Below are positions 801-59,595 of a stretch of DNA of 64,000 nt, piece after piece (within the stretch, counting starts at the first letter, position 1; the number at the start of each line of letters is the position of its first letter). The notes under the pieces were generated by a model. The model was given only the letters and a program-made list of their open reading frames with translations. It was not told the origin of the DNA and made no database searches. Origin of the DNA: an uncultured Fidelibacterota bacterium (GTDB taxonomy: Bacteria; Fidelibacterota; Marinisomatia; Marinisomatales; UBA1611); assembly GCA_902562835.1 (NCBI GenBank), contig CACEUX010000002.1, forward strand, positions 35,104 through 99,103, written 5' to 3'. Both the position numbers and the translations under genes were made by a program.

Positions 801-3800
801 CTACTTCAAGAAAAGCATCTTTTTTGTATCATTGAATTGAACGGTATTGATAGCATAAAAATACATACCTGTTGCAACCTTATAGCCAGAATTATTTGTT
901 CCGTCCCAAATAATAGCATGGTAACCTGGTTGCATAATTCCAGAACTCAATGTTCTCACCTTCTGACCTGCCATATTAAATACACTAAGCTCAACATGAC
1001 CACCTTCAGGAAGATCAAATCTAATTTCCGTAGATGGATTAAATGGGTTTGGAAAATTCTGTTGAAGTAAAAATTGACCAGGAATCATTTTTATTTCTTG
1101 TGCATTAGAACGTAAAATAAAATCGATTAAATTACCATCAGCACCAGATAGTTTGACATTATCAAGATTTATTGAACCAGTCTCATAATTATCACCATTA
1201 AATTGCACTGGTATTGCTAAATATGATCTATTTTCATTTTCTATGAAACCACCATATAGCTCTGCAGCTAATAACTTAATTGTACCTAAATCATTATCTC
1301 TTGATGAAATCAGCACATTCTCTTGGAAATTGAATAACCTTGGAGACTCTATCTGCAAAATATCTGAATCGTAGTTTAATTCAAGTTCAATCCCTCTTAT
1401 AGGAGAATTATATTCGATATCAAGAAGCAACCTTGAATTATCCCAATCTGAAACTAGGTCAATATACGCGACCTCACTAGGATCAAAACTCATGGTTCTT
1501 CCTGTAGCTCCAAAAATAATATCGATCATCATGATGACATCAGCAATATTGATATCATCGTCCATATTAACATCTACATTCCTGAATTCATCATCAGTAG
1601 GGTAATCTTCTTCCAAAATAAAGTCAACTACAGTTAAAACGTCATTAATGTCAGTATCACTATCAAAATCAGCATCACCAGGTGCATATGGCACCGTACA
1701 TGCCACATTAGAGTGTCGTGATTCTAGTTCACCATAATCATCTGTACTCCAATAGGCAGAAACATTATAACAGTATTCTACATAATTAGGACTTGCTGAA
1801 ACTGTGGCAAAGGTATCTGTCGTTGCGACTACATACGTTTCATTACCATCGATATCAACCTCATACACTCTATACTCAACGAGGTCATCTCTATTTAATT
1901 CTCTTGGTGATGGATTTTGCGGTTCATATGGGGTGTTCAATTGAGTAACAATATCAGAATTATTGGACTGCATTCCACTTTCATGGCTTGTAGCATTGTA
2001 ATTAGTTATGACTCCAGATGTTGCATTTTCAACCTCAATATTCCCACCAGTAGCATTCATTGCATATTGATTGCCTGGGGCACCTAAAAATGTTGCTAAA
2101 ATTCCAAAATTACCTGTTAATCCGGGATCCCCACCTACAATTTCTTCTATTGTTGCCCATTCCGCACCTGTTGTAACCCAATTTCGATCATAATACTCTG
2201 GGGTTTGTGGTTCGATGTCGTTGGAAATACCTAAAAAACCACTACCGTTCTCATTGACAACAACATAGACATCACCACTACTTACTTCTACCCCTGCGCC
2301 CGAAACGTCAAACTGATATTGCACTAGTTCATCAGGCGCCGATAGATCTACAGATGCAACAAGATTTATTGGGTCTCCTACCGGCCCTACAATTGAGGCA
2401 TCTGGATCTAAGTAGACATCCACATTAGCCGCTACTGCATTTCCCCCACCTTGCAAGGAGAGCACAAGTCCAGTCAGAAGGGCAGGATAATTTGGAGGGG
2501 TGAAGCGTACTCCAAATTGACAAGGTGCACCACAGCCTATCTGCGCCTCAAAAGAATCATCATAGTAAGCTATATCATAAAAATCCACACCACCAGGCTG
2601 ACGCCACTGTAAATATACCTGTTCATCTAATGGATAGGCATTCAAGCCCACTGGGCTCGGCATATCTGGACTCATTTCAAAGTTTTGAATGGTTGGGTCT
2701 GCTTGAGCTAGTACCTCAACTTCTGCATTAGTTGTATAAAATCCAGATTTTCTAACTTGGACGGTATTCGACCCAACATCTAGGTTCATGAGGGTATAGA
2801 CACCATCTGCACCAGTTGTGTCTGATGTGCTTCCAGATGTAACCACCACACCATCTAACAGAGCATCATTTGGGTCTGTCACCGTTCCAGTAACATCACC
2901 GTAAACATACACTGACTGAGCGACTAAATTTACCGGGTCACTTTCATAATTTTCTTGACCTTCAGCTCCTTCATATACAGCAGTTACCCCAAAAGTGTAC
3001 TCCTGTTCATTGTCTAAATTGTAAAAAGTATAGCCAGTTGTATCAAAAATCTCATCATTATTAAGAGCTCCATCCAAATAGACGTTATATCCCATAAAAT
3101 CATATTCATTCCTACTATCTCTTCCATTTGAAGTGACAGAAAAATTGTCAACCAACCACCAATTTATGTCAAAGGTTGTCGAACCATAACAATGGAATCT
3201 CACAAAAAGATTGCCTGATAAACCGGTTATATCATAACTATAATTTGTAAAAGTGAACTCTGCTCCCCCATTTGAGAATTCTTCTAGAATGGTCCAGTTC
3301 ACATCATTCCCTGTTTTGTACTCTGCTGCTAGAAACTCAGTGCCAGTTTCTGACCAATTATCAAACTCCAGGTCAAATGAAACTGTGGCCTCTGTTATAT
3401 CACCTAATGGTATAACAGGAGAGTATAAGCTTTGATCATAGTTGGTCGCAGTTGGACTCCAATTAAATCTAAAGGATGGCTCTGGATTACCTGTGAACTC
3501 GTCATAATACCAGTTTTCACCTCCATCTACCAACCAAAGATCTAGAAGGCCACCTGCATCGAAAGATTCATAATAGGGTACACCAAGGTTATTTACCTCT
3601 GGAGCAGTCCAATAAACCGATACTTCCTCATCCCAAACCTCAGCATATACATTAGTTGGTGGAAGAGGATCGAAAGTGCTAGGAACACCACATACGGTTT
3701 CCGTTGGTTCAGACTCCCCTTCATCGTAGAGTGCTGTTATATAATAACAGTATTCAGTTCCATTTGTGAGGTCGCCATGGGTAAAAGAAAGTTCAGGCGT

Positions 3801-4577
3801 GCAGGTCAAAATTGTATTATCAGCGGCATTGTAAACCCGGTAGCAGGTAAAAGTACCACACTCTTCCGGAATATCTCTTGATTGACTACTTAAAGTATAT
3901 CGAAAAGGATCCATAACCTCTGAAGAATAAGTGTCTATAGCATCTTGAGCATATCCTAGGTCTTCCATTTTAATTACTTCATCAGGCCACACGGTTCTGA
4001 TCGAGTTGTTAGCATGATCATTATTTGTCCTGTTCCCAGTAATACTAATTGATATCTCATAATTACCTGTTGCACCTCCAAAACCATCAACCACAACATA
4101 GTACTGACCGGGTTGAAGAGTCACAGCCCATAATCCACTTGGAGGATATGGAGCAACGTAATCAGGACAGTTGGTGTAATCATCATCATTATAATTTCCA
4201 GTCGATACTGGTGTAATGCAGTCCTGATCACTGGTAAAAATCTCAAGTTTTGAATCATAATCAGTCACATTGGAGCATAAAGTGAAATCATATGTAGTTG
4301 CCTCGCTTACATTGAGAGTATAGGCTACATCTTCGCCTTGTGAGCCCGAGACAGGCCAATCATCACCCATTCCTGAATTATTACCCTGATCTAAAAATGG
4401 CATTTCATCAACCGAATAATCACCACAACCAATATTACCTACTGGTTCACCCCAGGAAACTATATTTTCTTCATTACCACCAAAAACATTTATACTTGCT
4501 GGTGGACATAGCTCTTCATCTTGAGAAAAAAGGAAATGATTAAAAGTAAAAAGGAATGTTGTAAGTATTAGCCTCAT
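801..4577 (-). CDS. Large secreted multidomain surface protein with T9SS C-terminal sorting domain, dockerin-like and cohesin-like modules
   Basis: ORF track 801..4583 starts at GTG; an ATG two codons in (4577) gives MRLILTTFLFTF, a signal peptide. Domains, N to C: a pre-peptidase/PPC-like module (YYVVVDGFGGATGNYEISISI) and three FN3-like modules (YRVYNAAD..., YNVYLDG..., YRVYEVD...). Then a MAM/choice-of-anchor-like module and a CarboxypepD_reg-like module (GTVTDPNDALLDGVVVTSGS...GVYTLMNLDVGSNTV). Then duplicated dockerin-type Ca-binding segments (DFDSDTDINDVLTVVDFIL / DVNMDDDINIADVIMMIDIIFG) and a cohesin-like module. The T9SS CTD begins with NFPNPFNPST (nt 1029-1058). Confidence 0.8.
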   Translation of the reverse strand: MRLILTTFLFTFNHFLFSQDEELCPPASINVFGGNEENIVSWGEPVGNIGCGDYSVDEMPFLDQGNNSGMGDDWPVSGSQGEDVAYTLNVSEATTYDFTLCSNVTDYDSKLEIFTSDQDCITPVSTGNYNDDDYTNCPDYVAPYPPSGLWAVTLQPGQYYVVVDGFGGATGNYEISISITGNRTNNDHANNSIRTVWPDEVIKMEDLGYAQDAIDTYSSEVMDPFRYTLSSQSRDIPEECGTFTCYRVYNAADNTILTCTPELSFTHGDLTNGTEYCYYITALYDEGESEPTETVCGVPSTFDPLPPTNVYAEVWDEEVSVYWTAPEVNNLGVPYYESFDAGGLLDLWLVDGGENWYYDEFTGNPEPSFRFNWSPTATNYDQSLYSPVIPLGDITEATVSFDLEFDNWSETGTEFLAAEYKTGNDVNWTILEEFSNGGAEFTFTNYSYDITGLSGNLFVRFHCYGSTTFDINWWLVDNFSVTSNGRDSRNEYDFMGYNVYLDGALNNDEIFDTTGYTFYNLDNEQEYTFGVTAVYEGAEGQENYESDPVNLVAQSVYVYGDVTGTVTDPNDALLDGVVVTSGSTSDTTGADGVYTLMNLDVGSNTVQVRKSGFYTTNAEVEVLAQADPTIQNFEMSPDMPSPVGLNAYPLDEQVYLQWRQPGGVDFYDIAYYDDSFEAQIGCGAPCQFGVRFTPPNYPALLTGLVLSLQGGGNAVAANVDVYLDPDASIVGPVGDPINLVASVDLSAPDELVQYQFDVSGAGVEVSSGDVYVVVNENGSGFLGISNDIEPQTPEYYDRNWVTTGAEWATIEEIVGGDPGLTGNFGILATFLGAPGNQYAMNATGGNIEVENATSGVITNYNATSHESGMQSNNSDIVTQLNTPYEPQNPSPRELNRDDLVEYRVYEVDIDGNETYVVATTDTFATVSASPNYVEYCYNVSAYWSTDDYGELESRHSNVACTVPYAPGDADFDSDTDINDVLTVVDFILEEDYPTDDEFRNVDVNMDDDINIADVIMMIDIIFGATGRTMSFDPSEVAYIDLVSDWDNSRLLLDIEYNSPIRGIELELNYDSDILQIESPRLFNFQENVLISSRDNDLGTIKLLAAELYGGFIENENRSYLAIPVQFNGDNYETGSINLDNVKLSGADGNLIDFILRSNAQEIKMIPGQFLLQQNFPNPFNPSTEIRFDLPEGGHVELSVFNMAGQKVRTLSSGIMQPGYHAIIWDGTNNSGYKVATGMYFYAINTVQFNDTKKMLFLK

Positions 4578-4692
4578 TTTCACGGCATATCTCCCGTTAT
4601 AAATTGATTAAAAATTTCTATACTGGCTCAATGTAAAATAAGCCTTTCCCTACTCGAATTTAGGAACTCTCTCGAGTAATTCAATCAAATTT

Positions 4693-42325: not shown

Positions 42326-43766
42326 CTGGATAATAAATACTTACTATGTACACCGCAATAAATGCAAAAACAAAACTTGATAAACGTTCAGTCATTACAG
42401 ATCTCAAAATGGAAATATTTGCCCATATGATTGTGGTCAGGAACCCCGTTACAAGACCAGAAATAACTCCTTTTCTAGATGTTTTATCCCACCATAACGT
42501 CATGACCAAGACAGGACCAAATGCAGAACCTAAGCCACTCCAAGCATAGCTTACGACCCCAAAAATATTTCTGCCCTTAAATTGAGAATAAAATGCAATA
42601 CAATACGCTATAAGACCAAGGAGAATAATCATGAATCTACTTAGTTTTACTAGACTCTTATCAGATAGGTCCATTTTAAGAAATTGATGAAAAAAATCTT
42701 CTGTCACAGCAGATGTTGAAACAAGAAGCTGAGAGTCTGCAGTAGACATCATAGCCGCAACTGCTCCCGATATAAATAGACCAGCTATAATTGGATGCAA
42801 TAATTCACTAGCTAGCATAGGCATAGCTTGTTCTGGATCTATTTGCTGAAAAAAAGCTGGACCGAAGTGCATTAGTGCTACGATACCAACAAGAAATGCT
42901 CCTATAATACCAGGAATGGCCCAAGCAATAGCAATTTTTCTAGCTAGTTTAATATCTGCTGGATTTCTTATAGCCATGTACCTTATTATTAAGTGAGGTT
43001 GTCCTAAGTAACCCAAACCCCAGCTGAGTCCACCTAAAACAAGAATAATTGCTTCAATGCCTATTTTGCCACTGACCAGAGATTGATTATTATTTCCAAA
43101 TATTAATCCTGCCGAATAAAGTGTATCCATCATCGATTGTTCAGAGTTAGATAATTCAACAAAGCCAACTAAGGGTAATATGACCAAAGTCCCTATCATA
43201 AGGATGCCCTGTATTAAATCGGTCCAAGCAACCGCAAGAAACCCTCCCATCAGTGTATAAATAATAATAATAGAAGCACCAATAGATATTCCAGCTACGG
43301 GATCTATTTTAAACAATGAGTGAAGGACTTTACCCGAGGCATGGAATTGAGCAGAGACATAAAAAAGAAAGAAAAATGCTATTATTAAGGCTGAAAATAG
43401 CCTAATAATATTCGATTCATCATCAAAACGTCTATGTAGGTATTCAGGAATAGTAAGAGCATTATATTTTTCAGTTTGCTCGCGTAATTTTTCTGCGATG
43501 ATATACCATGAACAAGTAATTCCAGTTATGATACCAATTACAGACCATAATTCACCCATCCCAATGGTAATTGCAGCACCTGGCAGGGCTAACAGTAGCC
43601 AGGCGGATTCTCCAGAAGCCCTCTCAGAAAATGCAGTAACCCAAGGACCCAGTTTCCTTCCAGCTAAAAAATAATCCTCTTGAGTATTATTGTACCGAAA
43701 AGTCAAGACACCTACTCCCATCAAAAAGCATAAGTAGGAAATGAATATTAAACTAATTAGATCCAT
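42303..43766 (-). CDS. putP: Sodium/proline symporter-like SSS transporter
   Basis: DYFLAGRKLGPWV and GYLGQPHLIIRYMA motifs are typical of PutP/PanF. The internal ATG at 43766 (MDLISLIF...) is preferred, because the ORF-track start (43853) overlaps uppP by 97 nt. Confidence 0.75.
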   Translation of the reverse strand: MDLISLIFISYLCFLMGVGVLTFRYNNTQEDYFLAGRKLGPWVTAFSERASGESAWLLLALPGAAITIGMGELWSVIGIITGITCSWYIIAEKLREQTEKYNALTIPEYLHRRFDDESNIIRLFSALIIAFFFLFYVSAQFHASGKVLHSLFKIDPVAGISIGASIIIIYTLMGGFLAVAWTDLIQGILMIGTLVILPLVGFVELSNSEQSMMDTLYSAGLIFGNNNQSLVSGKIGIEAIILVLGGLSWGLGYLGQPHLIIRYMAIRNPADIKLARKIAIAWAIPGIIGAFLVGIVALMHFGPAFFQQIDPEQAMPMLASELLHPIIAGLFISGAVAAMMSTADSQLLVSTSAVTEDFFHQFLKMDLSDKSLVKLSRFMIILLGLIAYCIAFYSQFKGRNIFGVVSYAWSGLGSAFGPVLVMTLWWDKTSRKGVISGLVTGFLTTIIWANISILRSVMTERLSSFVFAFIAVYIVSIYYPDEVKRSD

Positions 43767-44524
43767 TTGTAAAAAACCGTTAAAAAGCCAATACAAAAAC
43801 AGTATAATCCAAAGTAGTGAAATTTGCCACTTTGTACTAGGCCAAGTAACCATTTGAGAGAAAGATAACCTACAATAAATGAGCTTAGTAAGCCTGCAAG
43901 TGCAACTGGCGCTCTGACCTGTAGACCACTGTCAATATCAAATAACATTAGTAAACCAGCTCCAAAAATTGCAGGTATGGCTAATAAGAAAGAGAACCTC
44001 GTCGATTCTTTAGCACTCAGGCCAAGGAAAAGAGCACAACTTATTGTCATGCCACTCCTAGAGATTCCAGGAATAATTGCCAATGCTTGGGCAAGACCAA
44101 TCGTAAAAGAAATTTTATAAGAAATACTTTTTTCTACCTGTTTAAAAAATTTTGAAGTAAAAAGAATTATACCTGTAAAAACCAATGCAATTCCTACAAC
44201 ATAAATATTATCAAAAAATGAATCAATAGTATCTTTCAAACCGAGACCAAATAAAACAGCGGGAATTGTCCCAAGAATAATAAAATATATAAATTGCTGG
44301 GTTTGATTTTTTCTAATTGATAGCAAAAGTGATTTTATGTCACTAAAGAATATGACTAGTATACTTGCTAGAGTGCCCATATGGACTAAAACCTCAAACT
44401 TATTACCCGGTTGATTTATACCAAGAAACTCTTGTGCAAGTACAAGATGCCCAGAACTACTAATTGGCAAAAATTCAGTAATACCCTGAATAATCCCAAG
44501 TATAATACCATCGATGATTGTCAT
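43757..44524 (-). CDS. uppP: Undecaprenyl-diphosphate phosphatase
   Basis: GITEFLPISSSGHL and PGISRSG, the BacA/UppP signature motifs. Confidence 0.93.
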   Translation of the reverse strand: MTIIDGIILGIIQGITEFLPISSSGHLVLAQEFLGINQPGNKFEVLVHMGTLASILVIFFSDIKSLLLSIRKNQTQQFIYFIILGTIPAVLFGLGLKDTIDSFFDNIYVVGIALVFTGIILFTSKFFKQVEKSISYKISFTIGLAQALAIIPGISRSGMTISCALFLGLSAKESTRFSFLLAIPAIFGAGLLMLFDIDSGLQVRAPVALAGLLSSFIVGYLSLKWLLGLVQSGKFHYFGLYCFCIGFLTVFYKWI

Positions 44525-44573
44525 AAAATTAATATGGAAGTTTATTAGACAGTTAAAGAAAATAGGAATATGA

Positions 44574-45269
44574 TTATTTAATACCTATTAAACCTATCAT
44601 ACGTCCCGCATTTTTCCCATTACGGCGATAAGAATGATACATAGAATCAAGACAAAAGGTGCAATCATTCATTATAGTTATTTTATTAATATCAAACCCC
44701 AATTGTGACAAGCTATTATATGCTGATTGTTGTAGGTCCACCTGGAACTTCTCATCGCTTTTCGGGATAATAAATTGACGGTCAAATTGATCCACAACAT
44801 CATTTCTGACTTCAAAACAACAACTTTGGATAGAAGGCCCAATTAAAATTTCAAATTCCATTAGATTATATTTTTTTTCAGTTAAGGTAAAAGCTGACTT
44901 AGTAAGAATACCATTTACAAGACCTCTCCAACCAGCATGTATTAAGCCGAATACTATTTTATACTTATGAGCAAAATATATAGGCATGCAATCTGCAACC
45001 TGGATAGAACATACATTTTTAGGACTATCAGAGAAAGCACCGTCACAATCAGGTATTTTTCCTTCACTTTCACAAAAAATAATATTGCTGGAGTGTGTTT
45101 GTTGAGGAATGATAAGACGTTTAGAATTAAAACCAACTGCTTTAGCAAATGATTGCCTACTTGCTTTTTTGCCTATAGATGATGATTTTAGACTAAATAC
45201 AGCTTTTATCTTTTCATTAGTAAAACTAGTTGAAATTTTTACCCAATTATCTTTTCTCATAGGAATCAA
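44574..45269 (-). CDS. pgeF: YfiH/PgeF-family purine nucleoside phosphorylase / peptidoglycan editing factor (laccase-domain protein)
   Basis: Conserved QTHS, VADCMPI and HAGWRG motifs, which supply the His-Cys-His ligands. Confidence 0.85.
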   Translation of the reverse strand: MIPMRKDNWVKISTSFTNEKIKAVFSLKSSSIGKKASRQSFAKAVGFNSKRLIIPQQTHSSNIIFCESEGKIPDCDGAFSDSPKNVCSIQVADCMPIYFAHKYKIVFGLIHAGWRGLVNGILTKSAFTLTEKKYNLMEFEILIGPSIQSCCFEVRNDVVDQFDRQFIIPKSDEKFQVDLQQSAYNSLSQLGFDINKITIMNDCTFCLDSMYHSYRRNGKNAGRMIGLIGIK

Positions 45270-47106
45270 TTAGTTTAACTCCATCGTATATCCCAAGATT
45301 GGTTAATCTATTATTGGAATATTGTAATACCTGCGCTGATCCATTCTCATTATGATTCTTGCCAAAAAATATTATGGATGTATGTTCACCGTAAAAACCA
45401 GAATGATTTCTAAGCTTTTCTAAAAACTGCCTGCGTTTCAAGATATTTTGTGAACTAATAGATTGAATAAAAGAAACATGGTCTTGCGCTAAAGAAAAAT
45501 AATTTGAAAAAGAATCTTGGTCTCCATTTGATATAGCCGAATTAACATCTGAAATAACATGCATACCTGAAATATGTGGCCCAATTACTTCTTTATTCAA
45601 TAAAGTCATATCTAACCAATTTTCATTTCCAAATAATACTGTATTTAAGTTGTAAAGGGGTAATTGAGTACCGATGTATGTTAATTCATCAGGCCTAATT
45701 GGGATATATAAAGCTTCGATTGTTTCTAAAACAATTTTGGCTGAATCTTTGCGATCCATTATATCTTTCTCAGGAGGAAGTTCAAAAAAGTCTGTAACAT
45801 CAACATCAAAGAGAGCATCAAGACTATCAATCTCTAAATTAAGTGATGGGTCATCCTCTTCTTCCTCAGGAACTAATGCCCAAGCATTTCTTCGAATATT
45901 CTTCATCTGCCTAGAAACATTTTCAGGCTTTTCGATATACCACTCTACAGACACAGGATCGATACCAAGCTGGTGACACTCATTTAAAAAACAGTCCGTT
46001 ATTAATTTTGTTGCACCATCTCCGGGCGAAAGGACCGCTATATTTTCAAAATTCAGTTCTTTTATCATCATTTGTGCTGTTCTTTGAGCAATTGTCTTTT
46101 TGGATGGAGATAAGAAAAAGAGATTTTTTGCAACATCAGCCAGCCCTGGCGAAGCAGATTTTGGAACTAAAATTGGAACAGATGAGTTAGACCCTGATAA
46201 ACTTAATATCTCATCTTTTGTTAGGGGGCCTAGCATTGCTGTTATCTGTCCATTTGACTCTACCTGCTGTAAAATATTAAGCGTATTAACGCTTGAACCA
46301 GCAGAGTCATAAACTAAAAACCTAATGGATCGTAAATTGGCTTTTGATTTTAAATATTCAGATAAACCTAATAAGTATGATTGGCCTTTTTCCTTCTCAT
46401 AGCCTGATAAAGGAAGCACAACTGCAATAGAAATTGGTCTTTTTAAGGGCTCTTGGAGTATATTTTTTAGCGCACCATAAATACCTGAAAAGTGTCCAGG
46501 TAAATAAAAAGTATCAATCTCGTTAATTATCATATCTAGATCATAATTATCTCCATTTAACCAGGCTTGATATGCTCTAGTAAGATTAATAATTGAACGA
46601 TTAAAAGCATTTTTTTCTCTGAAAAGGAGTCCCTCCAAGGTTTCCTCTTTTAAACCAATCCCAATACAATTATATATTCTCTGGTCGATAATATTTAAAT
46701 ATATTAAATCATCAATTAAAGGCCGCGCATTTAGATAATATCTAAATGCATTTGTAGTTCTCCCCTGCCTTAAGAAAATATCACCCATTAATATATATGC
46801 ATCCATTTGGTAAGGACTATTTGGGTAATTAGACAATACTAATTTACATGACCGTTGTGCCTCATCAAACATTTCTAAGTTATATTGACATTTGGCCATT
46901 AATAATTGTGCTGCTGGATCACGGTATTCTCTTTCGTTTACCAAGATATTTTTAAAATAGTTTAATGCAAGGCTGTATCTACCTTGCTGATAAAATTTGA
47001 CAGACTTATTAAATTTTTGATAATAGGGTAGCGAATCAATTTCGCCAGCACGTCCAAATGAAATTGTTAATGTCGAAATAAAAAAGATCTTAAAATAGTT
47101 CATCAA
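45247..47106 (-). CDS. Exported TPR + type-1 periplasmic-binding-fold protein, LpoA/LppC-like
   Basis: A signal peptide and N-terminal TPR-like helices. The segment ISIAVVLPLSGYEKEKGQSYLLGLSEYL...IRFLVYDSAGS resembles the LpoA/Peripla_BP_6 N-lobe signature. Confidence 0.5.
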   Translation of the reverse strand: MMNYFKIFFISTLTISFGRAGEIDSLPYYQKFNKSVKFYQQGRYSLALNYFKNILVNEREYRDPAAQLLMAKCQYNLEMFDEAQRSCKLVLSNYPNSPYQMDAYILMGDIFLRQGRTTNAFRYYLNARPLIDDLIYLNIIDQRIYNCIGIGLKEETLEGLLFREKNAFNRSIINLTRAYQAWLNGDNYDLDMIINEIDTFYLPGHFSGIYGALKNILQEPLKRPISIAVVLPLSGYEKEKGQSYLLGLSEYLKSKANLRSIRFLVYDSAGSSVNTLNILQQVESNGQITAMLGPLTKDEILSLSGSNSSVPILVPKSASPGLADVAKNLFFLSPSKKTIAQRTAQMMIKELNFENIAVLSPGDGATKLITDCFLNECHQLGIDPVSVEWYIEKPENVSRQMKNIRRNAWALVPEEEEDDPSLNLEIDSLDALFDVDVTDFFELPPEKDIMDRKDSAKIVLETIEALYIPIRPDELTYIGTQLPLYNLNTVLFGNENWLDMTLLNKEVIGPHISGMHVISDVNSAISNGDQDSFSNYFSLAQDHVSFIQSISSQNILKRRQFLEKLRNHSGFYGEHTSIIFFGKNHNENGSAQVLQYSNNRLTNLGIYDGVKLIDSYEKR

Positions 47107-47127: not shown

Positions 47128-47997
47128 TCATTTGTTAATATATATCAATTTTTCATATTCAAACTGAAGATATACATCTTTACTATTATTATGCCTATAA
47201 ATCCACTGTTCACTAATTCCATGCCTGCTTGAGGTGTAATTAACCTCATCAGGGTTACCAATAGCAATTCTCACTTGTCTTTCATTCATACCCAACTCTA
47301 TTTTCTTATTTACAATTTTACTTATGGTAACCCTACCCCAAGAGTAGGGTAAAGGTTCTGAATTATAATAATGATCTTGAATGCTAACACGCCCTTCATC
47401 ACCATTATACCTCACAAATGCCTCATCGCCTGTACTTGCTTTAGTTTTTAGCCAAATAGGGTGGTCATAACTAAGGTTTTGAAATGGAAACACATCCAAA
47501 ACTTTAACTGGCTCAAATCGTGTAAAGTTATATTCTGAAAAAGTATAAAAGCCATTAGAGTCAAAAGTATTATTAAGCCAAATGGTTTTACCAATCATTT
47601 TTTTTGCTTGGGAAAATACCTCCTCAAAAAGGAAGTAACTTGGAATTACATTATTATCAATCTCATTTAAATTAATTACCATCTTATATCGATTACCTTT
47701 TTGATCTTCAATTACTAAATATTCGTTAGTGAAAGTATTATAGGTTCCAATAATAGTATATTTTTTATCTAAAAGCTTATGGTAGGGTCTGAATCGATCT
47801 GAATGAAGCTTCGACCATATTCGATTAAAATTTTTAGTTCGTTTGTAATTATCATCTATGTCAGAAAAGTAAAAGTTCCTGCCTGACCAAGAATTAGAAT
47901 CAATCTGAATAAATGATTTATCAAAAAAAGAACATGATGAAACAATTAACGGTATTAAAACACAAACATATCTTAGGTACTTTGAACTTTGGATCAT
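47128..47997 (-). CDS. Hypothetical lipoprotein with BamE/SmpA_OmlA-like C-terminal domain
   Basis: Lipobox VSSCS. The C-terminal KIELGMNERQVRIAIGNPDEV...EQWIY fits the BamE-like G-M-x-x-x-Q-V pattern. Its ATG overlaps the stop codon of the MORN gene (TAATG). Confidence 0.5.
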   Translation of the reverse strand: MIQSSKYLRYVCVLIPLIVSSCSFFDKSFIQIDSNSWSGRNFYFSDIDDNYKRTKNFNRIWSKLHSDRFRPYHKLLDKKYTIIGTYNTFTNEYLVIEDQKGNRYKMVINLNEIDNNVIPSYFLFEEVFSQAKKMIGKTIWLNNTFDSNGFYTFSEYNFTRFEPVKVLDVFPFQNLSYDHPIWLKTKASTGDEAFVRYNGDEGRVSIQDHYYNSEPLPYSWGRVTISKIVNKKIELGMNERQVRIAIGNPDEVNYTSSRHGISEQWIYRHNNSKDVYLQFEYEKLIYINK

Positions 47998-50900
47998 TAG
48001 TTATTAATAGGTTTCCCATCTTTCCAGACTCCCACTTTTTTGTCACCATTAGGATATGTGAAGGTACCTTGACCATCCATTGTACCGTTTTTGAATTCAC
48101 CGACATATTTATTACCATTTTCATAAGTAAACACACCCAGGCCTTCTCTTTTACCATCTTTGAATTCACCAATATATAAATTTCCATTATTGAAAGAATA
48201 GGTTCCTTGACCTTCCATTACCCCATCGATAAATGTTCCTTCGTATGTATTACCATTCCTATAAATATATTTGCCTTGGCCATCAATCTCATCTTCTTTC
48301 CATTCACCAATATATTTTTCATCATTTGAAAATATACAAGTACCCTGGCCATCTCTTTTACCTGATTTAAAAAGGCCGTTATACTTATCCCCATTGATAT
48401 AATCAAAAGTCCCTTGGCCATCAATCTTGCCATTTAAAAAACTGCCTCTGCATACACTACCATTAGAGAATGTAAAGGAGCCCTGACCGGTTATTTCGTC
48501 ATTTTGCCATTCTCCATTATACTGTGATCCATCTGCAAATTGATATACCCCTTTTGAATGTTTCATATCATTCTTCCAACTACCATCATATACATCACCA
48601 ATAGAAGACTTAAAAACCCCTTGACCTTCTCTCTTACCAAATTCCCATTCACCATCATACGAGTCTCCAATAGAAGAGGTATATTTACCCTTTCCATGGA
48701 ATACGTCATCTTTAAAATTTCCAATATAGGTGATTCCATCAGTTATAAAAGTAGCTTTTCCCTCCCCTTCTTTTTTACCATTTCGCCAACCTCCATTATA
48801 TTCATCACCATTTGCATATTTCATTTTTCCTTGGCCAGTTTTTAAGTTGTTTTGCCAACCTCCATTATATTCATCACCATTTGCATATTTTAATATACCC
48901 TCACCCATTTTGAGATCATATTTCCATTCGCCTTCGTAGATATCACCTTTAGAATCTTTATATATTCCATAACCTTCCTTGATCCCATCAGCCCAGTTAC
49001 CTTGGTAAATATCACCATTATTATATTTATATGTTCCTTCTCCAGATTTTACATCATTTGACCATATCCCATCATATTTCTCCCCATTTTGATAGAGGTA
49101 GGTTCCTTGTCCCTCCTTTAGGTTACTAACCCAATAACCTTTATAATTATCACCATTTACATAAACCATTTGACCATCACCAGACATCATATCTTGCTTC
49201 CATTCACCTTTATAGTGATCCCCATTAGTGAAGTCCATTTCACCTATTCCATGCTTCATATCGCTTTCCCATTCGCCTTCATAATGCTCACCCTGGTTGG
49301 AGATGAAAATACCTTTACCGCTTCGCTTATCCATTTCCCACTCACCTTCATATGAATCACCATTTAGATACTTGAATGAGCCCTTACCATGGAATTGATC
49401 TTCTTTCCATTCACCGACATAACGATTCCCTTTGAAATAAAGTAATTCTGTTGATAGTGATTCATTCTTTTTTTGACCTACAAATGAGTATGTACCTTTA
49501 CCCTCTCTCTTATTATTGGTCCATTTACCCGTATATCGATGGCCAAGTACATCAGTATATGTACCTTCACCATTCATTGCATCTTTCCGCCATTCCCCTT
49601 TGTATTTATTACCTTTACCATCTGTAAAAGTTCCTTGCCCGCTCCTAAGGTCATCTTTCCATTCGCCGACGTACTTTTCTCCTAAATTTGAACTAAATGT
49701 TCCTCTACCATTTTTTTGATTATTTATCCATTCACCGTCATATTTATCACCAGTGGAGTAAATATATATCCCGATTCCTTGTATATTGTCTTGACTCCAG
49801 TCACCCTCATATATATCACCATTGGAATAGATAATTTTTCCCTTTCCATCTTTTTTATTATTGGCCCAAAAGCCGTTAAATACATTGCCATTTTTATCAT
49901 CATGAGTACCAGTTCCATGTTTCATATCTAACTCCCATTCACCATCATAAATAGTACCAGAATTATATTTCATTAAACCTTTACCGGCTTTTTTATTAGC
50001 TAACCATTCCCCTTCATATTGGTCACCATTTGCATAGGTCTGAGTCCCTTCTCCATGTCTAAGGTCCTTTAACCAAATCCCAACATACTTATCAGTATTT
50101 GAACTATAAAGTGTACCTTTTCCGTGTTTTAAACCTTGATGCCATAAACCAATATATTTATTACCACCTAAATCTGTAAAAGTACCATAACCATCATATT
50201 TACCACTTTTCCATTCCCCTTCATATTGGTCACCATTTGCAAAATAAAAGGTTCCGTTACCATTGTAAGCATTATCCTTCCAGTCTCCCTCATATCTGTT
50301 TCCTTTTAAATCAGAAAAGGTTCCATATCCTTCCATTTTACCTTCAAGCCAATTACCATTGAACCTTCGACCATCAGGATAAGTGAATGTCCCTGCCCCT
50401 TCCATCTGGTCATTAATAAAACTCCCTTCGTATTCGCTTCCATCAGAAAAACTAAATACTCCATTTCCAGCTTTCTTATTCTTTACCCATTGGCCGCTGT
50501 ATGTATCACCATTGACAAAGAAATAATATCCCTGACCATCCATTTGGCCCTCTTTCCAAGTGCCTTCGTAAATATCACCGTTTTTATCACGAAAGGTCCC
50601 TTTACCATTACGTTTCCCATCAGAGAAATAACCCTCATATAAATCTCCATTTACATAAGTATATATTCCGTAACCAATGCGTTTATCATCAACCCATTCG
50701 CCATCATACCGATTACCATTTACAAAGATGTATAATCCCCTACCATTCATTCTGCCCTTAACCCATTCACCTTTATAGGTTTCCCCTATTGAGGATCTAA
50801 AAGTACCTTGACCATTTAATTTGCCATCATTGAAGGTACCTTCAAAATAATTACCATTAGATGCGGCATAGATGCCTTCTCCCTCCATAGTATCTTCTTT

Positions 50901-52118
50901 CCATTCACCATGATATTCATTGCCATTCTCAAAAACATAGGAACCTTTACCATGCATTTTACCTTTTTTAAAATCACCCTCGTAAGTATCTCCATTTGCA
51001 TAGCTATAATTACCGTACCCATCCATAGATCCATTTTTCCAATTACCACTATATTTGCCACCAGAGACATAGGTAAACACTCCCTGCCCATGCTTTAAAT
51101 CATTTTTCCATTCTCCATCATATACATTCCCATTAGGATAAGTAAAAATACCCTGTCCATTTTTGACGCCATTCCAAAACTCACCTTTATATGTGTTACC
51201 ATTTTTAAAAGTAAAAATACCACGTCCAGTTCGCTTACCATCTTTGTAATCACCTACATACTTTTCTCCATCAGGATAGGTAAAAGTGCCTTCGCCATTC
51301 CTTTTACCATTTTGAAATTCACCAACATATTTGGTACCGTTCTTAAAACTATAGGTACCTTTTCCATGACTTTTATCATCCCTCCATTCACCTTCATATA
51401 TATTCCCATTTTTAAATGTAAATATTCCACTTCCTTCCATATTGCCATCATAAAACTCACCTTCATAAATATTTCCGTTTACATAGGTGAAAATACCTTG
51501 TCCATGTTTTTTACCATCTAAAAATTCACCTTTATACACATTGCCACTTTTAAACGTATATACCCCTCTTCCCTGTCTTTTATCATACTTAAAGTCACCT
51601 TCATAAGTATTTCCTTCACCATCTATTGAAATGCCTATCCCATGTTTCTTATCATCTTTCCATTCACCCTCATACTTTTTTCCAAATGTGTATATATAAG
51701 TTCCATTTCCATTCTTTTTATCTCCTTTCCACTCGCCTATATACGTATTTCCGAATGGATAGTAATATGTGCCCTCTCCTTCTTTTTTACCATTACTCCA
51801 TTCACCTTCATACTTTTCTCCACCAATAATATGAAGAGTACCCCAACCATGAAAAAGACCAGCCAGAAAACTTCCTACATATGTATGACTATCATCTTCA
51901 AATGTAAATGTTCCTTCTCCTTGCCGAATACCATTGACCCAATCACCGTCATATGTATCTCCATTTGGATATATATATTTACCAATACCATGACGCCTAC
52001 CGTCTTTTAAGTCCCCTGTATAATTAAAACCATATTGAATTACATCGTTCTCAGAATTCTCGTTCTGAGAAAATAAATAGGAGAAAAGAAATACATTTAA
52101 TATAAGAATGGCTTTCAT
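47997..52118 (-). CDS. Exported giant MORN-repeat protein (~58 tandem 23-aa repeats)
   Basis: Signal peptide MKAILILNVFLFSYLFSQ. A near-continuous array of Y-x-G-E/D-W-x(4)-K/R-x-G-x-G-x(5)-N-G units then runs to the C-terminus. No other domain is visible. Confidence 0.9.
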   Translation of the reverse strand: MKAILILNVFLFSYLFSQNENSENDVIQYGFNYTGDLKDGRRHGIGKYIYPNGDTYDGDWVNGIRQGEGTFTFEDDSHTYVGSFLAGLFHGWGTLHIIGGEKYEGEWSNGKKEGEGTYYYPFGNTYIGEWKGDKKNGNGTYIYTFGKKYEGEWKDDKKHGIGISIDGEGNTYEGDFKYDKRQGRGVYTFKSGNVYKGEFLDGKKHGQGIFTYVNGNIYEGEFYDGNMEGSGIFTFKNGNIYEGEWRDDKSHGKGTYSFKNGTKYVGEFQNGKRNGEGTFTYPDGEKYVGDYKDGKRTGRGIFTFKNGNTYKGEFWNGVKNGQGIFTYPNGNVYDGEWKNDLKHGQGVFTYVSGGKYSGNWKNGSMDGYGNYSYANGDTYEGDFKKGKMHGKGSYVFENGNEYHGEWKEDTMEGEGIYAASNGNYFEGTFNDGKLNGQGTFRSSIGETYKGEWVKGRMNGRGLYIFVNGNRYDGEWVDDKRIGYGIYTYVNGDLYEGYFSDGKRNGKGTFRDKNGDIYEGTWKEGQMDGQGYYFFVNGDTYSGQWVKNKKAGNGVFSFSDGSEYEGSFINDQMEGAGTFTYPDGRRFNGNWLEGKMEGYGTFSDLKGNRYEGDWKDNAYNGNGTFYFANGDQYEGEWKSGKYDGYGTFTDLGGNKYIGLWHQGLKHGKGTLYSSNTDKYVGIWLKDLRHGEGTQTYANGDQYEGEWLANKKAGKGLMKYNSGTIYDGEWELDMKHGTGTHDDKNGNVFNGFWANNKKDGKGKIIYSNGDIYEGDWSQDNIQGIGIYIYSTGDKYDGEWINNQKNGRGTFSSNLGEKYVGEWKDDLRSGQGTFTDGKGNKYKGEWRKDAMNGEGTYTDVLGHRYTGKWTNNKREGKGTYSFVGQKKNESLSTELLYFKGNRYVGEWKEDQFHGKGSFKYLNGDSYEGEWEMDKRSGKGIFISNQGEHYEGEWESDMKHGIGEMDFTNGDHYKGEWKQDMMSGDGQMVYVNGDNYKGYWVSNLKEGQGTYLYQNGEKYDGIWSNDVKSGEGTYKYNNGDIYQGNWADGIKEGYGIYKDSKGDIYEGEWKYDLKMGEGILKYANGDEYNGGWQNNLKTGQGKMKYANGDEYNGGWRNGKKEGEGKATFITDGITYIGNFKDDVFHGKGKYTSSIGDSYDGEWEFGKREGQGVFKSSIGDVYDGSWKNDMKHSKGVYQFADGSQYNGEWQNDEITGQGSFTFSNGSVCRGSFLNGKIDGQGTFDYINGDKYNGLFKSGKRDGQGTCIFSNDEKYIGEWKEDEIDGQGKYIYRNGNTYEGTFIDGVMEGQGTYSFNNGNLYIGEFKDGKREGLGVFTYENGNKYVGEFKNGTMDGQGTFTYPNGDKKVGVWKDGKPINN
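48010..52020 (-). repeat. 69-nt-periodic coding tandem repeat array (MORN units)
   Basis: The periodicity shows in the DNA. It also shows in the many spurious plus-strand and out-of-frame ORFs the track reports across this interval. A perfect 37-nt copy pair sits at 48785-48821 and 48854-48890, exactly 69 nt apart. Confidence 0.85.
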
Positions 52119-52298
52119 GGTCCTAAAAATTTACAAAATATTAGACCTTAAACAGTAAATCCAATCTTTAATAGAATATAAATGATTAAATGTGGGATTC
52201 AGAACCTTATCACTGGTAAAGCAAGGTTCAATTAAGATAAAGCCAAATATAAAAAAACATCTAAAATTTTATTTTTGGGGTTAGTCGTTAGAATTTTT

Positions 52299-52526
52299 CT
52301 ACTTCTTCAATTTATCATATGTATTCCAAACATCCTTTATCAGATAAGATAAAAGAACTGTTATTAATACTGTAAAACCTAGAATCGATATATTGATTCC
52401 ATTACTTTCCTTGTAATCCATAATCAACCAAATTACAAAACCTACAAAACTAACTACTGAAATATTTAGGGCTGATAGTTTTATATATTTTATCATATTA
52501 TTATCAAAAAAACATTTAGGATTCAT
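52299..52526 (-). CDS. Small 2-TM membrane protein (75 aa)
   Basis: Two hydrophobic helices (LNISVVSFVGFVIWLIM and ISILGFTVLITVLLSYLI). Its ATG overlaps the stop of the upstream YwqK-like gene (ATGA), which suggests translational coupling. Confidence 0.5.
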   Translation of the reverse strand: MNPKCFFDNNMIKYIKLSALNISVVSFVGFVIWLIMDYKESNGINISILGFTVLITVLLSYLIKDVWNTYDKLKK

Positions 52527-53269
52527 TCACTGGCAGAGGAATCTTCAACCCATTCTTTTACAGATATTAATTCTCCTAAATTGTAGGTTTCTTCTAATTC
52601 CTTATGACCATCTTTATCCCAATAAACCCACAAACCTTCTTTTTTCACTCCTTTAAGAACGCCCTCAGATAACTTTTGTCCATTATTATGCCAGAATGTC
52701 CATAAACCCTCTCCTTTGCCATTTTTATAGACTCCTTCAGATTCTTTCTGACCTCTCTCATTCCAGTATGTCCATAGACCTTCTAATTCACCATTCTCAA
52801 AAGTTCCTTCCTTTATCTTATTTCCATTCTCATACCAGAAAGTCCATTTTCCATCTTTTTTGCCATTCTTAAACGTTCCGTTTGATTCTTTTTTGCCATT
52901 ATAGTACCACCATGTCCAAAGTCCTTCTCCCTTACCGAATTTGATATTCCTCTTAGATTTCATCTTACCATTATCATGCCACCTTTTCCATACTCCAACT
53001 TCTTTGCCTTCTTTAAATGTCCCTTCTTCTTTCTTTTGTCCATTTTTATACCAAAAGGTCCACAACCCTTCTTTTCTACCGTTTACTGCAAGACCTAAGA
53101 CAACTTTCTGGTCTCCAAGAATTTGATAAATTGAACCATTAACAGATGCCTCATCAGATTTATTTAAAAAAATACCATCCTTATACATTAAATCTTCTAG
53201 ATCGTATTCGTTTTGAGAAAGTCCAACTGTAAAAGATAATAGCGATATAATTATTAATTTTCGTTTCAT
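52523..53269 (-). CDS. Exported YwqK-like / MORN-variant repeat protein
   Basis: The signal peptide starts from the internal ATG (MKRKLIIISLLSF...). About 7 units follow of G-x-W-x-x-W-x-x-N-G-x-K-x-x-E-G-x-F-K-x-G-K-x-x-G, the MORN_2/YwqK antitoxin-type repeat. Confidence 0.75.
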   Translation of the reverse strand: MKRKLIIISLLSFTVGLSQNEYDLEDLMYKDGIFLNKSDEASVNGSIYQILGDQKVVLGLAVNGRKEGLWTFWYKNGQKKEEGTFKEGKEVGVWKRWHDNGKMKSKRNIKFGKGEGLWTWWYYNGKKESNGTFKNGKKDGKWTFWYENGNKIKEGTFENGELEGLWTYWNERGQKESEGVYKNGKGEGLWTFWHNNGQKLSEGVLKGVKKEGLWVYWDKDGHKELEETYNLGELISVKEWVEDSSASE

Positions 53270-53329
53270 AAGGTAGTAATTCAAATGAAAAGTCATGTTA
53301 TTGAGTAGATTGATATTTGTTTAAGACTA

Positions 53330-59546: not shown

Positions 59547-59595
59547 ATATAAATCCTTATAAACTTATATAAAAAAATTTCTCAACGAATATTAT

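What the first reader, a model, noticed from the sequence alone, without database searches (positions are those of the whole stretch)
47997..52118. Exported 1373-aa protein made almost entirely of ~58 tandem MORN repeats
After a signal peptide (MKAILILNVFLFSYLFSQ), the translation is an essentially unbroken array of 23-residue units, Y-x-G-E/D-W-x(4)-K/R-x-G-x-G-x(5)-N-G, which is the MORN repeat. Length divided by period gives about 58 units; this is an estimate and the units were not counted individually. I see only one break (VGQKKNESLSTELLYF, roughly residue 850).

The protein has no catalytic domain, no membrane anchor and no T9SS C-terminal domain. MORN proteins have been characterised mainly in eukaryotes (junctophilins, plant PIP kinases, apicomplexan MORN1), and those have far fewer repeats. 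Bacterial MORN arrays have no established function. An exported solenoid of this size would be a major envelope or periplasmic scaffold.
Basis: partly seen in the sequence, partly recalled or inferred. Interest (0 to 1): 0.7.

Follow-up and report, generated by a model that had tools for sequence, protein, structure and literature searches.

The report
Giant exported MORN-repeat ribbon protein
An uncultured ocean bacterium (SAR406/Marinimicrobia) encodes a 153-kDa exported protein made only of 57 MORN beta-hairpin repeats, about a 50-nm ribbon, whose repeat number is fixed across related species; it sits in a conserved cell-envelope gene cluster, so it is probably a periplasmic structural scaffold, but its function is untested.

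Summary
ORF 47997-52118 (minus strand, 1373 aa) matches Pfam MORN at E=2.7e-294. It contains 57 full 23-residue units plus a C-terminal half-unit cap, one 15-residue loop insertion (residues ~880-895) and a Sec-type signal peptide ending S|Q. AlphaFold (pLDDT 94.5) and Foldseek (MORN1 crystal structures, TM 0.87-0.92) give a continuous beta-hairpin sheet, not a solenoid.

The array is not an assembly artefact. Seventeen independent orthologues (59-93% identity) are 1371-1380 aa and align almost without gaps. dN/dS is 0.08-0.13, unitig depth is flat, and metatranscriptomes contain the gene.

The organism is a marine Marinimicrobia. The conserved module is: small 2-TM protein, giant, translationally coupled lipoprotein (weakly BamE-like), secreted TPR/LppC-like protein, PgeF, UppP. 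Deeper clades keep the module but have 51 or about 69 units, differing by whole units. An unrelated locus has 95 units, so 57 is not the maximum.

The giant lacks a T9SS sorting domain that another protein in the window has, so a periplasmic location is most likely.

Best reading: a fixed-length periplasmic envelope scaffold. Structure and export are well supported; the function is inferred. It is a new variant of a known repeat family, of moderate interest.

The parts
47997..52118 (-). Giant MORN-only gene. The precursor is 1373 aa; the mature protein is about 1356 aa, 153 kDa, pI 5.3.
   Evidence: ORF; Pfam MORN E=2.7e-294 and nothing else; composition and pI; orthologues of 1371-1380 aa in 17 loci.
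52068..52118 (-). Signal peptide, residues 1-17 (MKAILILNVFLFSYLFS), with predicted SPase I cleavage before Q18.
   Evidence: The layout M-K, a 13-14 residue hydrophobic core, then S|Q is conserved in all orthologues while the core sequence itself varies. No SignalP was available.
48039..52022 (-). Array of 57 MORN units (residues 33-1360), each 23 residues: Y-x-G-[ED]-W-x(6)-G-x-G-x-[FY]-x-[YF]-x-N-G-x-x.
   Evidence: Unit table and column profile. The AlphaFold model of residues 701-1106 has pLDDT 94.5 with one beta-hairpin per unit. Foldseek matches MORN1 6t4r/6t6q/6t4d at E~2e-20, TM 0.87-0.92.
49434..49481 (-). 15-residue insertion (residues ~880-895, VGQKKNESLSTELLYF) in the loop of unit 37. 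Its position is conserved but its sequence varies.
   Evidence: 38-residue spacing; pLDDT <50 for residues 882-893; present in all five aligned orthologues with a variable sequence; absent from the 51- and ~69-unit clades.
48000..48038 (-). C-terminal half-unit cap (KKVGVWKDGKPINN). Together with units 56-57 it is the most conserved part of the protein.
   Evidence: Units 56-57 are 87-91% invariant across five orthologues, against about 50% on average. The cap motif G-x-W-x-x-G-K-P-[LI] is also kept in the 51- and ~69-unit relatives.
52128..52143 (-). Invariant 16-nt block TAATATTTTGTAAATT, 11-26 nt upstream of the start codon. It is a candidate promoter or translation signal.
   Evidence: The block is invariant (apart from one position, n) in six loci whose surrounding spacer is diverged. 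The 11-nt core is not enriched elsewhere in the window.
52299..52526 (-). Small ORF (75 aa as listed; probably about 65 aa starting from M11) with two hydrophobic helices, lying directly upstream of the giant.
   Evidence: ORF. tblastn finds it upstream of the giant in at least 13 loci at 30-67% identity (99% in the near-identical L042), including loci whose further-upstream context differs. No family match.
47128..47997 (-). 289-aa lipoprotein whose ATG overlaps the giant's stop codon (TAATG). It has SH3-like barrels in the N-terminal part and a weakly BamE/OsmE-like C-terminal domain.
   Evidence: Gene junction. The lipobox Cys22 is invariant in 35 homologues. Model pLDDT is 89. Only weak fold and profile matches were found. 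It lies downstream of the giant in every locus with enough flank, including the 51- and ~69-unit clades.
45247..47106 (-). 619-aa secreted protein with N-terminal TPR repeats and a type-I periplasmic-binding fold. The architecture resembles LppC/LpoA, and the TPR part resembles CpoB.
   Evidence: Pfam TPR_6/TPR_19 pass their cut-offs; Peripla_BP_6 and LppC fall just below theirs. NCBIfam gives ybgF/CpoB at E=2.8e-7. PDB matches are HAAT SBP 4nqr at 1e-5 and CpoB 6g5s at 0.014. It is conserved downstream in all loci.
43757..45269 (-). PgeF/YfiH-family gene (44574..45269) and the undecaprenyl-diphosphatase gene uppP (43757..44524), at the conserved downstream end of the module.
   Evidence: Pfam Cu-oxidase_4 E=1.3e-48; TIGR00753 UppP E=2.4e-61; same gene order in L001, L002, L004, L005 and L007.
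52523..53296 (-). 257-aa exported MORN_2 (PF07661) protein. It is a variable upstream neighbour: present in some lineages and absent in others.
   Evidence: Pfam MORN_2 E=4.8e-23. Present in L001, L002 and L027, with matches in L006. No room for it in L017, L019 or L020, where guaA is followed directly by the small ORF and the giant.

Best explanation
The gene encodes a Sec-exported protein of a marine Marinimicrobia (SAR406) bacterium that most likely stays in the periplasm. The protein is a single uninterrupted array of 57 MORN beta-hairpins, forming a twisted one-layer beta-sheet ribbon with a contour length of about 50 nm.

I propose that it is a structural scaffold or spacer of the cell envelope. 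In this model it is held at a membrane through the translationally coupled lipoprotein, and perhaps through the small 2-TM protein encoded upstream. It would act together with the secreted TPR/LppC-like protein and the peptidoglycan and lipid-carrier genes that follow (PgeF, UppP). Its length would matter for function, because the unit number is frozen within a clade and changes only by whole units between deep clades.

Shown: the repeat identity, the fold (predicted), the signal-peptide features, the absence of a T9SS domain, purifying selection, the fixed length, the conserved synteny, and transcription in situ.

Inferred: cleavage at S17|Q18, periplasmic retention, binding to the lipoprotein, and the scaffold or ruler role.
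For: - MORN identity and fold.
- Ribbon length: 9 repeats span about 80 A in the MORN1 crystal structures (PMC7725318), so 57 repeats give about 50 nm.
- Export: a conserved M-K, hydrophobic core, S|Q N-terminus in all orthologues.
- No T9SS CTD, although the 801..4583 protein in the same window has one.
- Selection: dN/dS 0.08-0.13. Identity to orthologues is as high as for UppP and higher than for holA or PgeF.
- Fixed length: the window protein plus 17 complete orthologues are all 1371-1380 aa and align nearly gap-free.
- Whole-unit indels between clades with 51, 57 and ~69 units, all of which keep the lipoprotein and the TPR/LppC-like gene downstream.
- Stop/start overlap between the giant and the lipoprotein gene (ATGA-type overlap in L001, L002 and L004).
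- Metatranscriptome contigs cover the giant in four runs.
- The termini are the most conserved parts, which recalls the C-terminal dimer interface of MORN1.
Against: - There is no experimental or proteomic evidence for localisation, cleavage or partners.
- SignalP could not be run.
- The envelope assignment of the neighbours rests partly on sub-threshold matches (LppC, BamE, CpoB).
- In this streamlined genome almost all genes are co-directional and tightly packed, so adjacency alone is weak evidence of an operon.
- RNA contigs cover the giant but hardly the downstream genes, which argues against simple equimolar co-expression.
- A 95-unit exported MORN protein sits in an unrelated context (L026), so giant MORN arrays do not need this module.
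- The variable faces of the hairpins show no clear conserved binding surface.
Confidence: 0.4

Rival explanations
1. The protein is a cell-surface fibre or adhesin. After Sec export, the ribbon would be moved across the outer membrane by an unrecognised route, possibly involving the coupled lipoprotein. On the surface it would mediate attachment to particles or other cells, or shield the cell.
For: Very large exported repeat proteins in bacteria are typically adhesins. The neighbouring MORN_2 protein weakly matches a Leptospira adhesin family (NF033566, E=3.7e-7, far below its cut-off). The gene is comparatively well represented in metatranscriptomes.
Against: There is no T9SS CTD, although the organism has a CTD-bearing protein. 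Pfam finds only MORN, so there is no autotransporter barrel, RTX/T1SS signal or sortase motif. Adhesin repeats usually vary in number between strains and evolve fast, whereas here the number is frozen and dN/dS is about 0.1.
Confidence: 0.15
2. The protein is a periplasmic multivalent binding platform or sponge. The aromatic groove that runs along a MORN sheet would bind extended peptides, muropeptide stems, lipids or unfolded outer-membrane proteins, so that the giant concentrates or chaperones a ligand rather than acting as a strut.
For: The MORN groove binds partner helices or peptides in MORN4/Myo3a and in junctophilin, both of which are Foldseek hits (6jle, 7rxq). TbMORN1 co-purifies with PE (PMC7725318). 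The groove-face positions (Y1, W5, 10, 16, 18) are the most conserved. The neighbours weakly resemble BamE, BamD/CpoB and periplasmic binding proteins.
Against: The groove residues are also the structural core, so their conservation is not specific evidence of ligand binding. A sponge would not obviously need an exactly fixed unit number or unit-specific identity.
Confidence: 0.2
3. The N-terminal hydrophobic segment is an uncleaved signal anchor. The ribbon would then be tethered directly to the inner membrane and project into the periplasm.
For: Only manual criteria support cleavage, and no predictor or N-terminal peptide data are available. The hydrophobic stretch is conserved as a feature in all orthologues.
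Against: The core is only 13-14 residues long, which is short for a transmembrane helix. An invariant small residue at -1 (S17), with L or G at -3 and Q at +1, fits SPase I cleavage. The same S|Q ending is seen on two other exported proteins in the window.
Confidence: 0.1
4. The array length is an assembly artefact, or the gene is a decaying, non-functional repeat expansion.
For: One short-read contig (L021) is exactly 4 units shorter than a 97%-identical long-read assembly (L005), which shows that collapse or deletion can occur in the most self-similar part of the array. L005 carries a frameshift.
Against: Seventeen independent assemblies give 1371-1380 aa. In run X1, unitigs tile the gene colinearly at the same depth as the flanks, about 23x. 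The units are only about 38% identical to each other. dN/dS is 0.08-0.13. The gene is transcribed.
Confidence: 0.03

Closest known systems
MORN1 of Trypanosoma, Toxoplasma and Plasmodium (PDB 6t4r, 6t6q, 6t4d; PMC7725318)
   Same: These are all-MORN proteins with 23-residue beta-hairpin units forming an elongated, twisted single sheet. The model superposes on them at TM 0.87-0.92, rmsd 1.6-2.6 A and about 38% identity. They have a cytoskeleton-like scaffolding role and highly conserved C-terminal repeats; in MORN1 those repeats form the dimer interface.
   Different: MORN1 has 15 repeats, is cytoplasmic and is eukaryotic. This protein has 57 repeats, a signal peptide and a bacterial envelope gene context. 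Dimerisation was not tested here.
Junctophilins (PDB 7rxe, 7rw4, 9uo9)
   Same: They share the MORN beta-sheet (Foldseek E about 1e-13) and are used as a spacer or tether between two membranes.
   Different: Junctophilins have 8 MORN repeats packed against a long alpha-helix plus a C-terminal TM anchor. Here there is no helix or TM segment in the mature protein.
Axonemal MORN proteins (radial spoke RSP1/RSP10, central-pair proteins; 7sqc, 7jtk, 8j07)
   Same: They use the MORN sheet as a static structural building block of a large assembly.
   Different: They have short arrays, are eukaryotic and are cytoplasmic.
Other long bacterial and metagenomic MORN proteins (e.g. P0001 at 1998 aa, P0005, P0232; MORN fused to trypsin, TIR, caspase or AAA domains)
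   Same: They have the same repeat family and long arrays, and some carry signal peptides.
   Different: Most carry an effector or enzymatic domain. None in the two libraries reaches 50 units by the same count, and none is an orthologue (at most 48% identity over short stretches of at most about 560 residues).
L026 giant (2243 aa, 95 MORN units) and the L040 / L027 variants from marine metagenomes
   Same: They are exported MORN-only proteins at 44-48% identity with the same C-terminal cap. L040 and L027 share the downstream lipoprotein and TPR/LppC-like genes.
   Different: The unit numbers differ (95, ~69, 51). They lack the 15-residue insertion. L026 lies in a different gene context.

Membership tests
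MORN repeat (Pfam PF02493) | HMM match above the gathering score | tested here: met
   932.7 bits against a cut-off of 22.5, with 49 stretches.
MORN repeat (Pfam PF02493) | 23-residue period with the YxGxW ... GxG signature | tested here: met
   57 units. G3 and G14 are 100%, G12 98%, Y1 93%, and W/F5 96%.
MORN repeat (Pfam PF02493) | Each unit is a beta-hairpin, and units stack into one elongated antiparallel sheet | tested here: met
   The AlphaFold2 model has pLDDT 94.5 with two strands per unit. The best Foldseek hits are MORN1 crystal structures at TM 0.87-0.92. This is a prediction, not an experiment.
MORN1-type scaffolds | Tail-to-tail dimerisation or oligomerisation through the C-terminal repeats | not testable with these tools
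   The only indirect hint is that units 56-57 and the cap are the most conserved. No multimer prediction was available.
Junctophilin | MORN domain followed by an alpha-helical spacer and a C-terminal TM anchor | tested here: not met
   Only MORN is detected. The modelled segment is all-beta, and the C-terminus ends in a half repeat.
Sec/SPase I substrate | N-terminal n/h/c signal peptide with small residues at -1 and -3 | tested here: met
   By manual criteria only: M-K, a 13-14 residue hydrophobic core, S at -1, L or G at -3 and Q at +1 in all five aligned orthologues. No SignalP was available and there are no N-terminal proteomic data.
T9SS cargo | C-terminal sorting domain (Por_Secre_tail / CHU_C type) | tested here: not met
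   No CTD match was found, and the protein ends in a MORN half-unit. As a positive control in the same window, the 801..4583 protein matches FlgD_ig, CHU_C and Por_Secre_tail at residues 1177-1256.
Autotransporter / T1SS-RTX adhesins | C-terminal beta-barrel translocator, or RTX repeats with a T1SS signal | tested here: not met
   Pfam and NCBIfam show MORN only or nothing.
LpoA/LppC (for the 619-aa neighbour) | Pfam LppC match above the gathering score, and an outer-membrane lipoprotein lipobox | tested here: inconclusive
   LppC scores 25.9 bits against a cut-off of 28.8, and Peripla_BP_6 scores 27.6 against 31.7. The N-terminus has no lipobox Cys. The architecture (TPR plus periplasmic-binding fold) is similar.
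BamE/SmpA-OmlA (for the C-terminal domain of the 289-aa lipoprotein) | Significant match to the BamE profile or fold | tested here: inconclusive
   11 of 35 family members touch Pfam BamE, with a best E of 0.011. BamE is the only PDB profile hit, at E 0.45. Foldseek gives OsmE and BLIP-like hits at E 0.05-0.3.

The most novel reading that the evidence does not exclude
SAR406 bacteria build a periplasmic, cytoskeleton-like ribbon from a single 57-hairpin MORN protein. Its fixed length of about 50 nm would set or measure an envelope dimension, such as peptidoglycan to outer-membrane spacing or cell-pole or division geometry, in concert with a dedicated lipoprotein, a small membrane protein and a TPR/LppC-like regulator. 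This would be the first defined function for a prokaryotic MORN array, and a new kind of bacterial envelope ruler.
Probability: 0.2. Interest if true: 0.8.

Novelty: new variant of a known kind. Interest (0 to 1): 0.55.

Why it matters
MORN repeats are widespread, but they have been studied functionally almost only in eukaryotes, and only in arrays of up to about 20 repeats. Here an abundant, uncultured ocean lineage with streamlined genomes spends 4.1 kb on an exported all-MORN protein. That protein evolves as slowly as housekeeping genes, keeps an exact repeat number across species, and is tied to envelope genes.

If it is a periplasmic scaffold or ruler, it would give prokaryotic MORN arrays a first function and add a new element to bacterial envelope architecture. 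It would also be a natural example of a very long single-layer beta-sheet, which is of interest for protein design. If it is merely a structural filler or an adhesin, it is still a well-defined, testable family, with members of 51, 57, ~69 and 95 units.

Tried and rejected
- Exact-sequence look-ups of the giant, the lipoprotein and three orthologues found nothing on record.
- Two large protein-library searches returned only repeat-level matches and no orthologue, although orthologues exist on public contigs. The orthologues were reached instead through the neighbouring lipoprotein and through contig scans.
- TRF and DNA-level repeat analysis found only short 67-71% arrays, so a recent amplification is rejected.
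- No intrinsic terminator-like site lies between the giant and the lipoprotein gene, and sigma-70-like promoter hits are at the chance level.
- The invariant upstream block is not an exact Bacteroidetes -7 element (TAnnTTTG), by inspection of the alignment. It is also not a general motif of the window.
- I considered a disulfide between the two cysteines (C1223 and C1261) as evidence for an oxidising compartment. I rejected it because they lie three strands apart in a MORN sheet, and L004 lacks the second cysteine.
- The fold search of the lipoprotein gave no significant match.
- A literature hit for 'MORN' plus Marinimicrobia turned out to be the word 'morning'. No paper on giant exported bacterial MORN arrays was found.
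- The Q-rule cannot be assumed here, because the source paper says it is not FCB-wide. Only a three-protein local observation supports it.
Full report
**1. Observation**

The ORF lies at 47997..52118 on the minus strand and encodes 1373 aa. Pfam MORN (PF02493) matches at E=2.7e-294 (932.7 bits, 49 stretches). No other Pfam or NCBIfam family matches.

Counting the anchor Y-x-G-x-W ... G-x-G gives 56 hits with spacing of exactly 23. The exceptions are two 24-residue units, one 38-residue gap and one 46-residue gap. The 46-residue gap holds a unit with a degenerate GxG (HSKG). The 38-residue gap is one unit plus a 15-residue insertion at residues ~880-895.

The total is therefore 57 full units (residues 33-1360), a C-terminal half-unit cap and a short N-terminal cap. 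Columns G3, G12, G14, G21, Y1 and W/F5 are nearly invariant between units. Mean unit-to-unit identity is only 38%, and TRF hardly detects a DNA repeat. This is an old, diverged array, not a recent amplification.

**2. The array is not an artefact**

Using the downstream lipoprotein as a probe, I found syntenic loci in two marine MAGs, TMED46 and ERR598968_bin.126, and on further contigs. A metagenome scan with the orthologue alignment added many more.

- Seventeen complete orthologues at 59-93% identity are 1371-1380 aa, with 56-57 regex units (L001, whose translation contains ambiguous residues, scores 53).
- Five of them align over the full length with at most 9 gapped columns between the window protein and any of them (at most 10 between any pair), and even the insertion and the two 24-residue units are in place.
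- In run X1, unitigs tile 47500-52700 colinearly at 19.5-29x, against about 24x in the flanks.
- A long-read, pilon-polished assembly (L005) spans the same 4.1 kb with one frameshift.
- The only discordant case is L021, which is exactly 276 nt (4 units) shorter than L005 at 97% identity. The breakpoint is a 16-nt microhomology in the most self-similar region. This is either a short-read collapse or a genuine unit-deletion variant.

**3. Selection and expression**

dN/dS is 0.13, 0.084 and 0.086 for the three pairs tested. Identity to orthologues is 76/67/61% (against L002, L007 and L004). That equals UppP (74/64/58) and the TPR/LppC-like protein (74/66/58), and exceeds holA, PgeF and the lipoprotein.

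Orthologous units are far more alike (61-93%) than neighbouring units within one protein (about 40%). Each unit therefore has its own conserved identity.

Conservation is highest in units 3-19 and above all in units 56-57 plus the cap, which are 87-91% invariant.

Contigs from four RNA runs lie on the giant, and contigs from two to three of them lie on the upstream MORN_2 gene. The downstream genes are almost unrepresented. Two caveats apply: contig depth is a poor measure of expression, and DNA carry-over is possible.

**4. Structure**

An AlphaFold2 model of residues 701-1106 has mean pLDDT 94.5 and pTM 0.76. Each unit is a hairpin of a 7-residue and a 9-residue strand, in one continuous antiparallel sheet. 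The insertion (residues 882-893) is a low-confidence loop.

Foldseek's best matches are the MORN1 crystal structures (E~2e-20, TM 0.87-0.92, rmsd 1.6-2.6 A, 38% identity). Axonemal MORN proteins, junctophilins and MORN4 follow.

PMC7725318 reports about 80 A for 9 repeats, an aromatic groove, C-terminal tail-to-tail dimers and filament or mesh formation. It also gives the known range of repeat numbers as '2 to over 20'. By extrapolation, 57 units give a ribbon with a contour length of about 50 nm. The fold is a single-layer sheet, not a solenoid.

**5. Organism and localisation**

A homologue of the lipoprotein is annotated as Candidatus Marinimicrobia, and all related contigs are marine. This lineage is diderm and belongs to the FCB group.

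The N-terminus is M-K, then a 13-14 residue hydrophobic core, then S|Q in the five aligned orthologues, while the core sequence itself drifts (N-termini of the others). Two other exported-looking proteins in the window end the same way. The Q-rule is documented only for Bacteroidetes, so this is an observation rather than an established rule for this lineage.

The mature protein (1356 aa, 153 kDa, pI 5.3) contains no domain other than MORN. In particular it has no T9SS C-terminal domain, whereas the 1260-aa protein at 801..4583 in the same window does. Periplasmic retention is therefore the simplest reading, but it remains an inference.

**6. Gene context**

The conserved module runs in this order:
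- a small 2-TM ORF (52299..52526), found upstream in at least 13 loci;
- an invariant 16-nt block TAATnTTTTGTAAATT at -26..-11 of the start codon;
- the giant;
- a 289-aa lipoprotein whose ATG overlaps the giant's stop (TAATG here, ATGA in relatives);
- a secreted TPR plus periplasmic-binding-fold protein, resembling LppC/LpoA and CpoB but with those matches sub-threshold;
- PgeF/YfiH and UppP.

The lipoprotein has an invariant lipobox Cys22 and a confident model (pLDDT 89). It shows only weak similarity to SH3/Tudor barrels and to BamE, OsmE and BLIP-like domains.

The upstream side varies: it is guaA with or without a MORN_2 gene in some lineages, and der plus Impact_N in L004. This strengthens the link to the downstream genes. 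Even so, co-directional, tightly packed genes are the norm in this genome.

**7. Wider family**

Neither the word-indexed search nor the exhaustive HMMER search of 1.84 billion representatives found an orthologue. The exhaustive search returned 89,285 MORN proteins at E<=1e-3. Among the 238 best hits, none reaches 50 units by the regex that gives 56 here.

The contig scan did reveal deeper relatives at 44-48% identity, all with signal peptides:
- L027, with 51 units;
- L040, with 67 regex hits, or about 69 units;
- L028, with at least 74 units;
- L029, with at least 60 units;
- L026, with 95 units in 2243 aa, confirmed as MORN-only by Pfam.

L027 and L040 keep the lipoprotein (54-55% identity) and the TPR/LppC-like gene downstream. 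L026 lies in another context.

An alignment of the 51-, 57- and ~69-unit forms shows gaps of 23, 24, 38, 46, 69, 92 and 115 residues, that is, whole units. All forms share the C-terminal cap G-x-W-x-x-G-K-P-[LI]. Unit number is thus frozen within a clade and changes in whole units between deep clades.

**8. Interpretation**

The structure, the export signal, the selection and the synteny are well supported. The function is inferred.

The best fit is a fixed-length periplasmic scaffold or spacer that works with the coupled lipoprotein and the envelope genes (confidence about 0.4). The alternatives are:
- a multivalent periplasmic binding platform (0.2);
- a surface fibre or adhesin exported by an unknown route (0.15);
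- an inner-membrane-anchored form with an uncleaved signal (0.1);
- an artefact or a decaying gene (at most 0.03).

**9. Novelty**

The repeat family and its fold are known. What is new is an exported, MORN-only prokaryotic giant with a clade-fixed repeat number and a conserved envelope module, in an abundant uncultured ocean lineage. I found no literature on it. I rate it a new variant of a known kind, with interest 0.55.

Noticed in passing
window 52128-52143 (-); alignment A3: An invariant 16-nt block, TAATnTTTTGTAAATT, lies 11-26 nt upstream of the giant's ATG in six loci whose surrounding spacers are diverged. It is not an exact Bacteroidetes -7 element (TAnnTTTG), and its core is not enriched elsewhere in the window.
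   Followed up: partly
window 52299-52526 (-): An unannotated small ORF (about 65-75 aa, two hydrophobic helices) is conserved directly upstream of the giant in at least 13 loci, even where the further-upstream genes differ. It has no family match.
   Followed up: partly
L026 715-7446 (+): A 2243-aa exported MORN-only protein with 95 units (Pfam MORN 1439 bits) sits in a different context, followed by an ABC_ATPase (PF09818) gene. It is the largest MORN array seen here.
   Followed up: partly
L021 1038-4898 versus L005 5875-9994: Two 97%-identical sequences differ by an exact in-frame 276-nt (4-unit) block at a 16-nt microhomology, in the part of the array with the highest DNA self-similarity (equivalent to window ~51373-51822, where TRF finds 69- and 138-nt periods). 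It is either a short-read collapse or a natural unit-deletion variant.
   Followed up: partly
window 801-4583 (-): A 1260-aa exported protein has CarboxypepD_reg and fn3 domains and a C-terminal FlgD_ig / CHU_C / Por_Secre_tail-like domain (residues 1177-1256). This suggests the Marinimicrobia genome uses a T9SS-type sorting signal.
   Followed up: partly
window 52523-53296, 47997-52118 and 801-4583 (N-termini): Three signal-peptide proteins in the window have Gln directly after the predicted cleavage site (…S|Q). This resembles the Bacteroidetes Q-rule, which PMC5837995 says is not general for the FCB group.
   Followed up: no
window 52523-53296 (-): A 257-aa exported MORN_2 (PF07661) protein lies next to the giant. 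A similar gene lies upstream of the 51-unit giant in L027, but it is absent from several orthologous loci.
   Followed up: partly
window 57987-62148 (-) and 38381-40132 (-): Signalling genes flank the region: a response regulator with a PglZ domain, a CHASE2-adenylate/guanylate cyclase, and a GAF-GGDEF diguanylate cyclase. The GGDEF gene is syntenic in all long loci.
   Followed up: no
window 1-64000: Nearly all ORFs of at least 120 aa are on the minus strand with very short or overlapping spacers, and GC is 32-42%. This fits a streamlined epipelagic Marinimicrobia genome, and it weakens operon inference based on adjacency alone.
   Followed up: no
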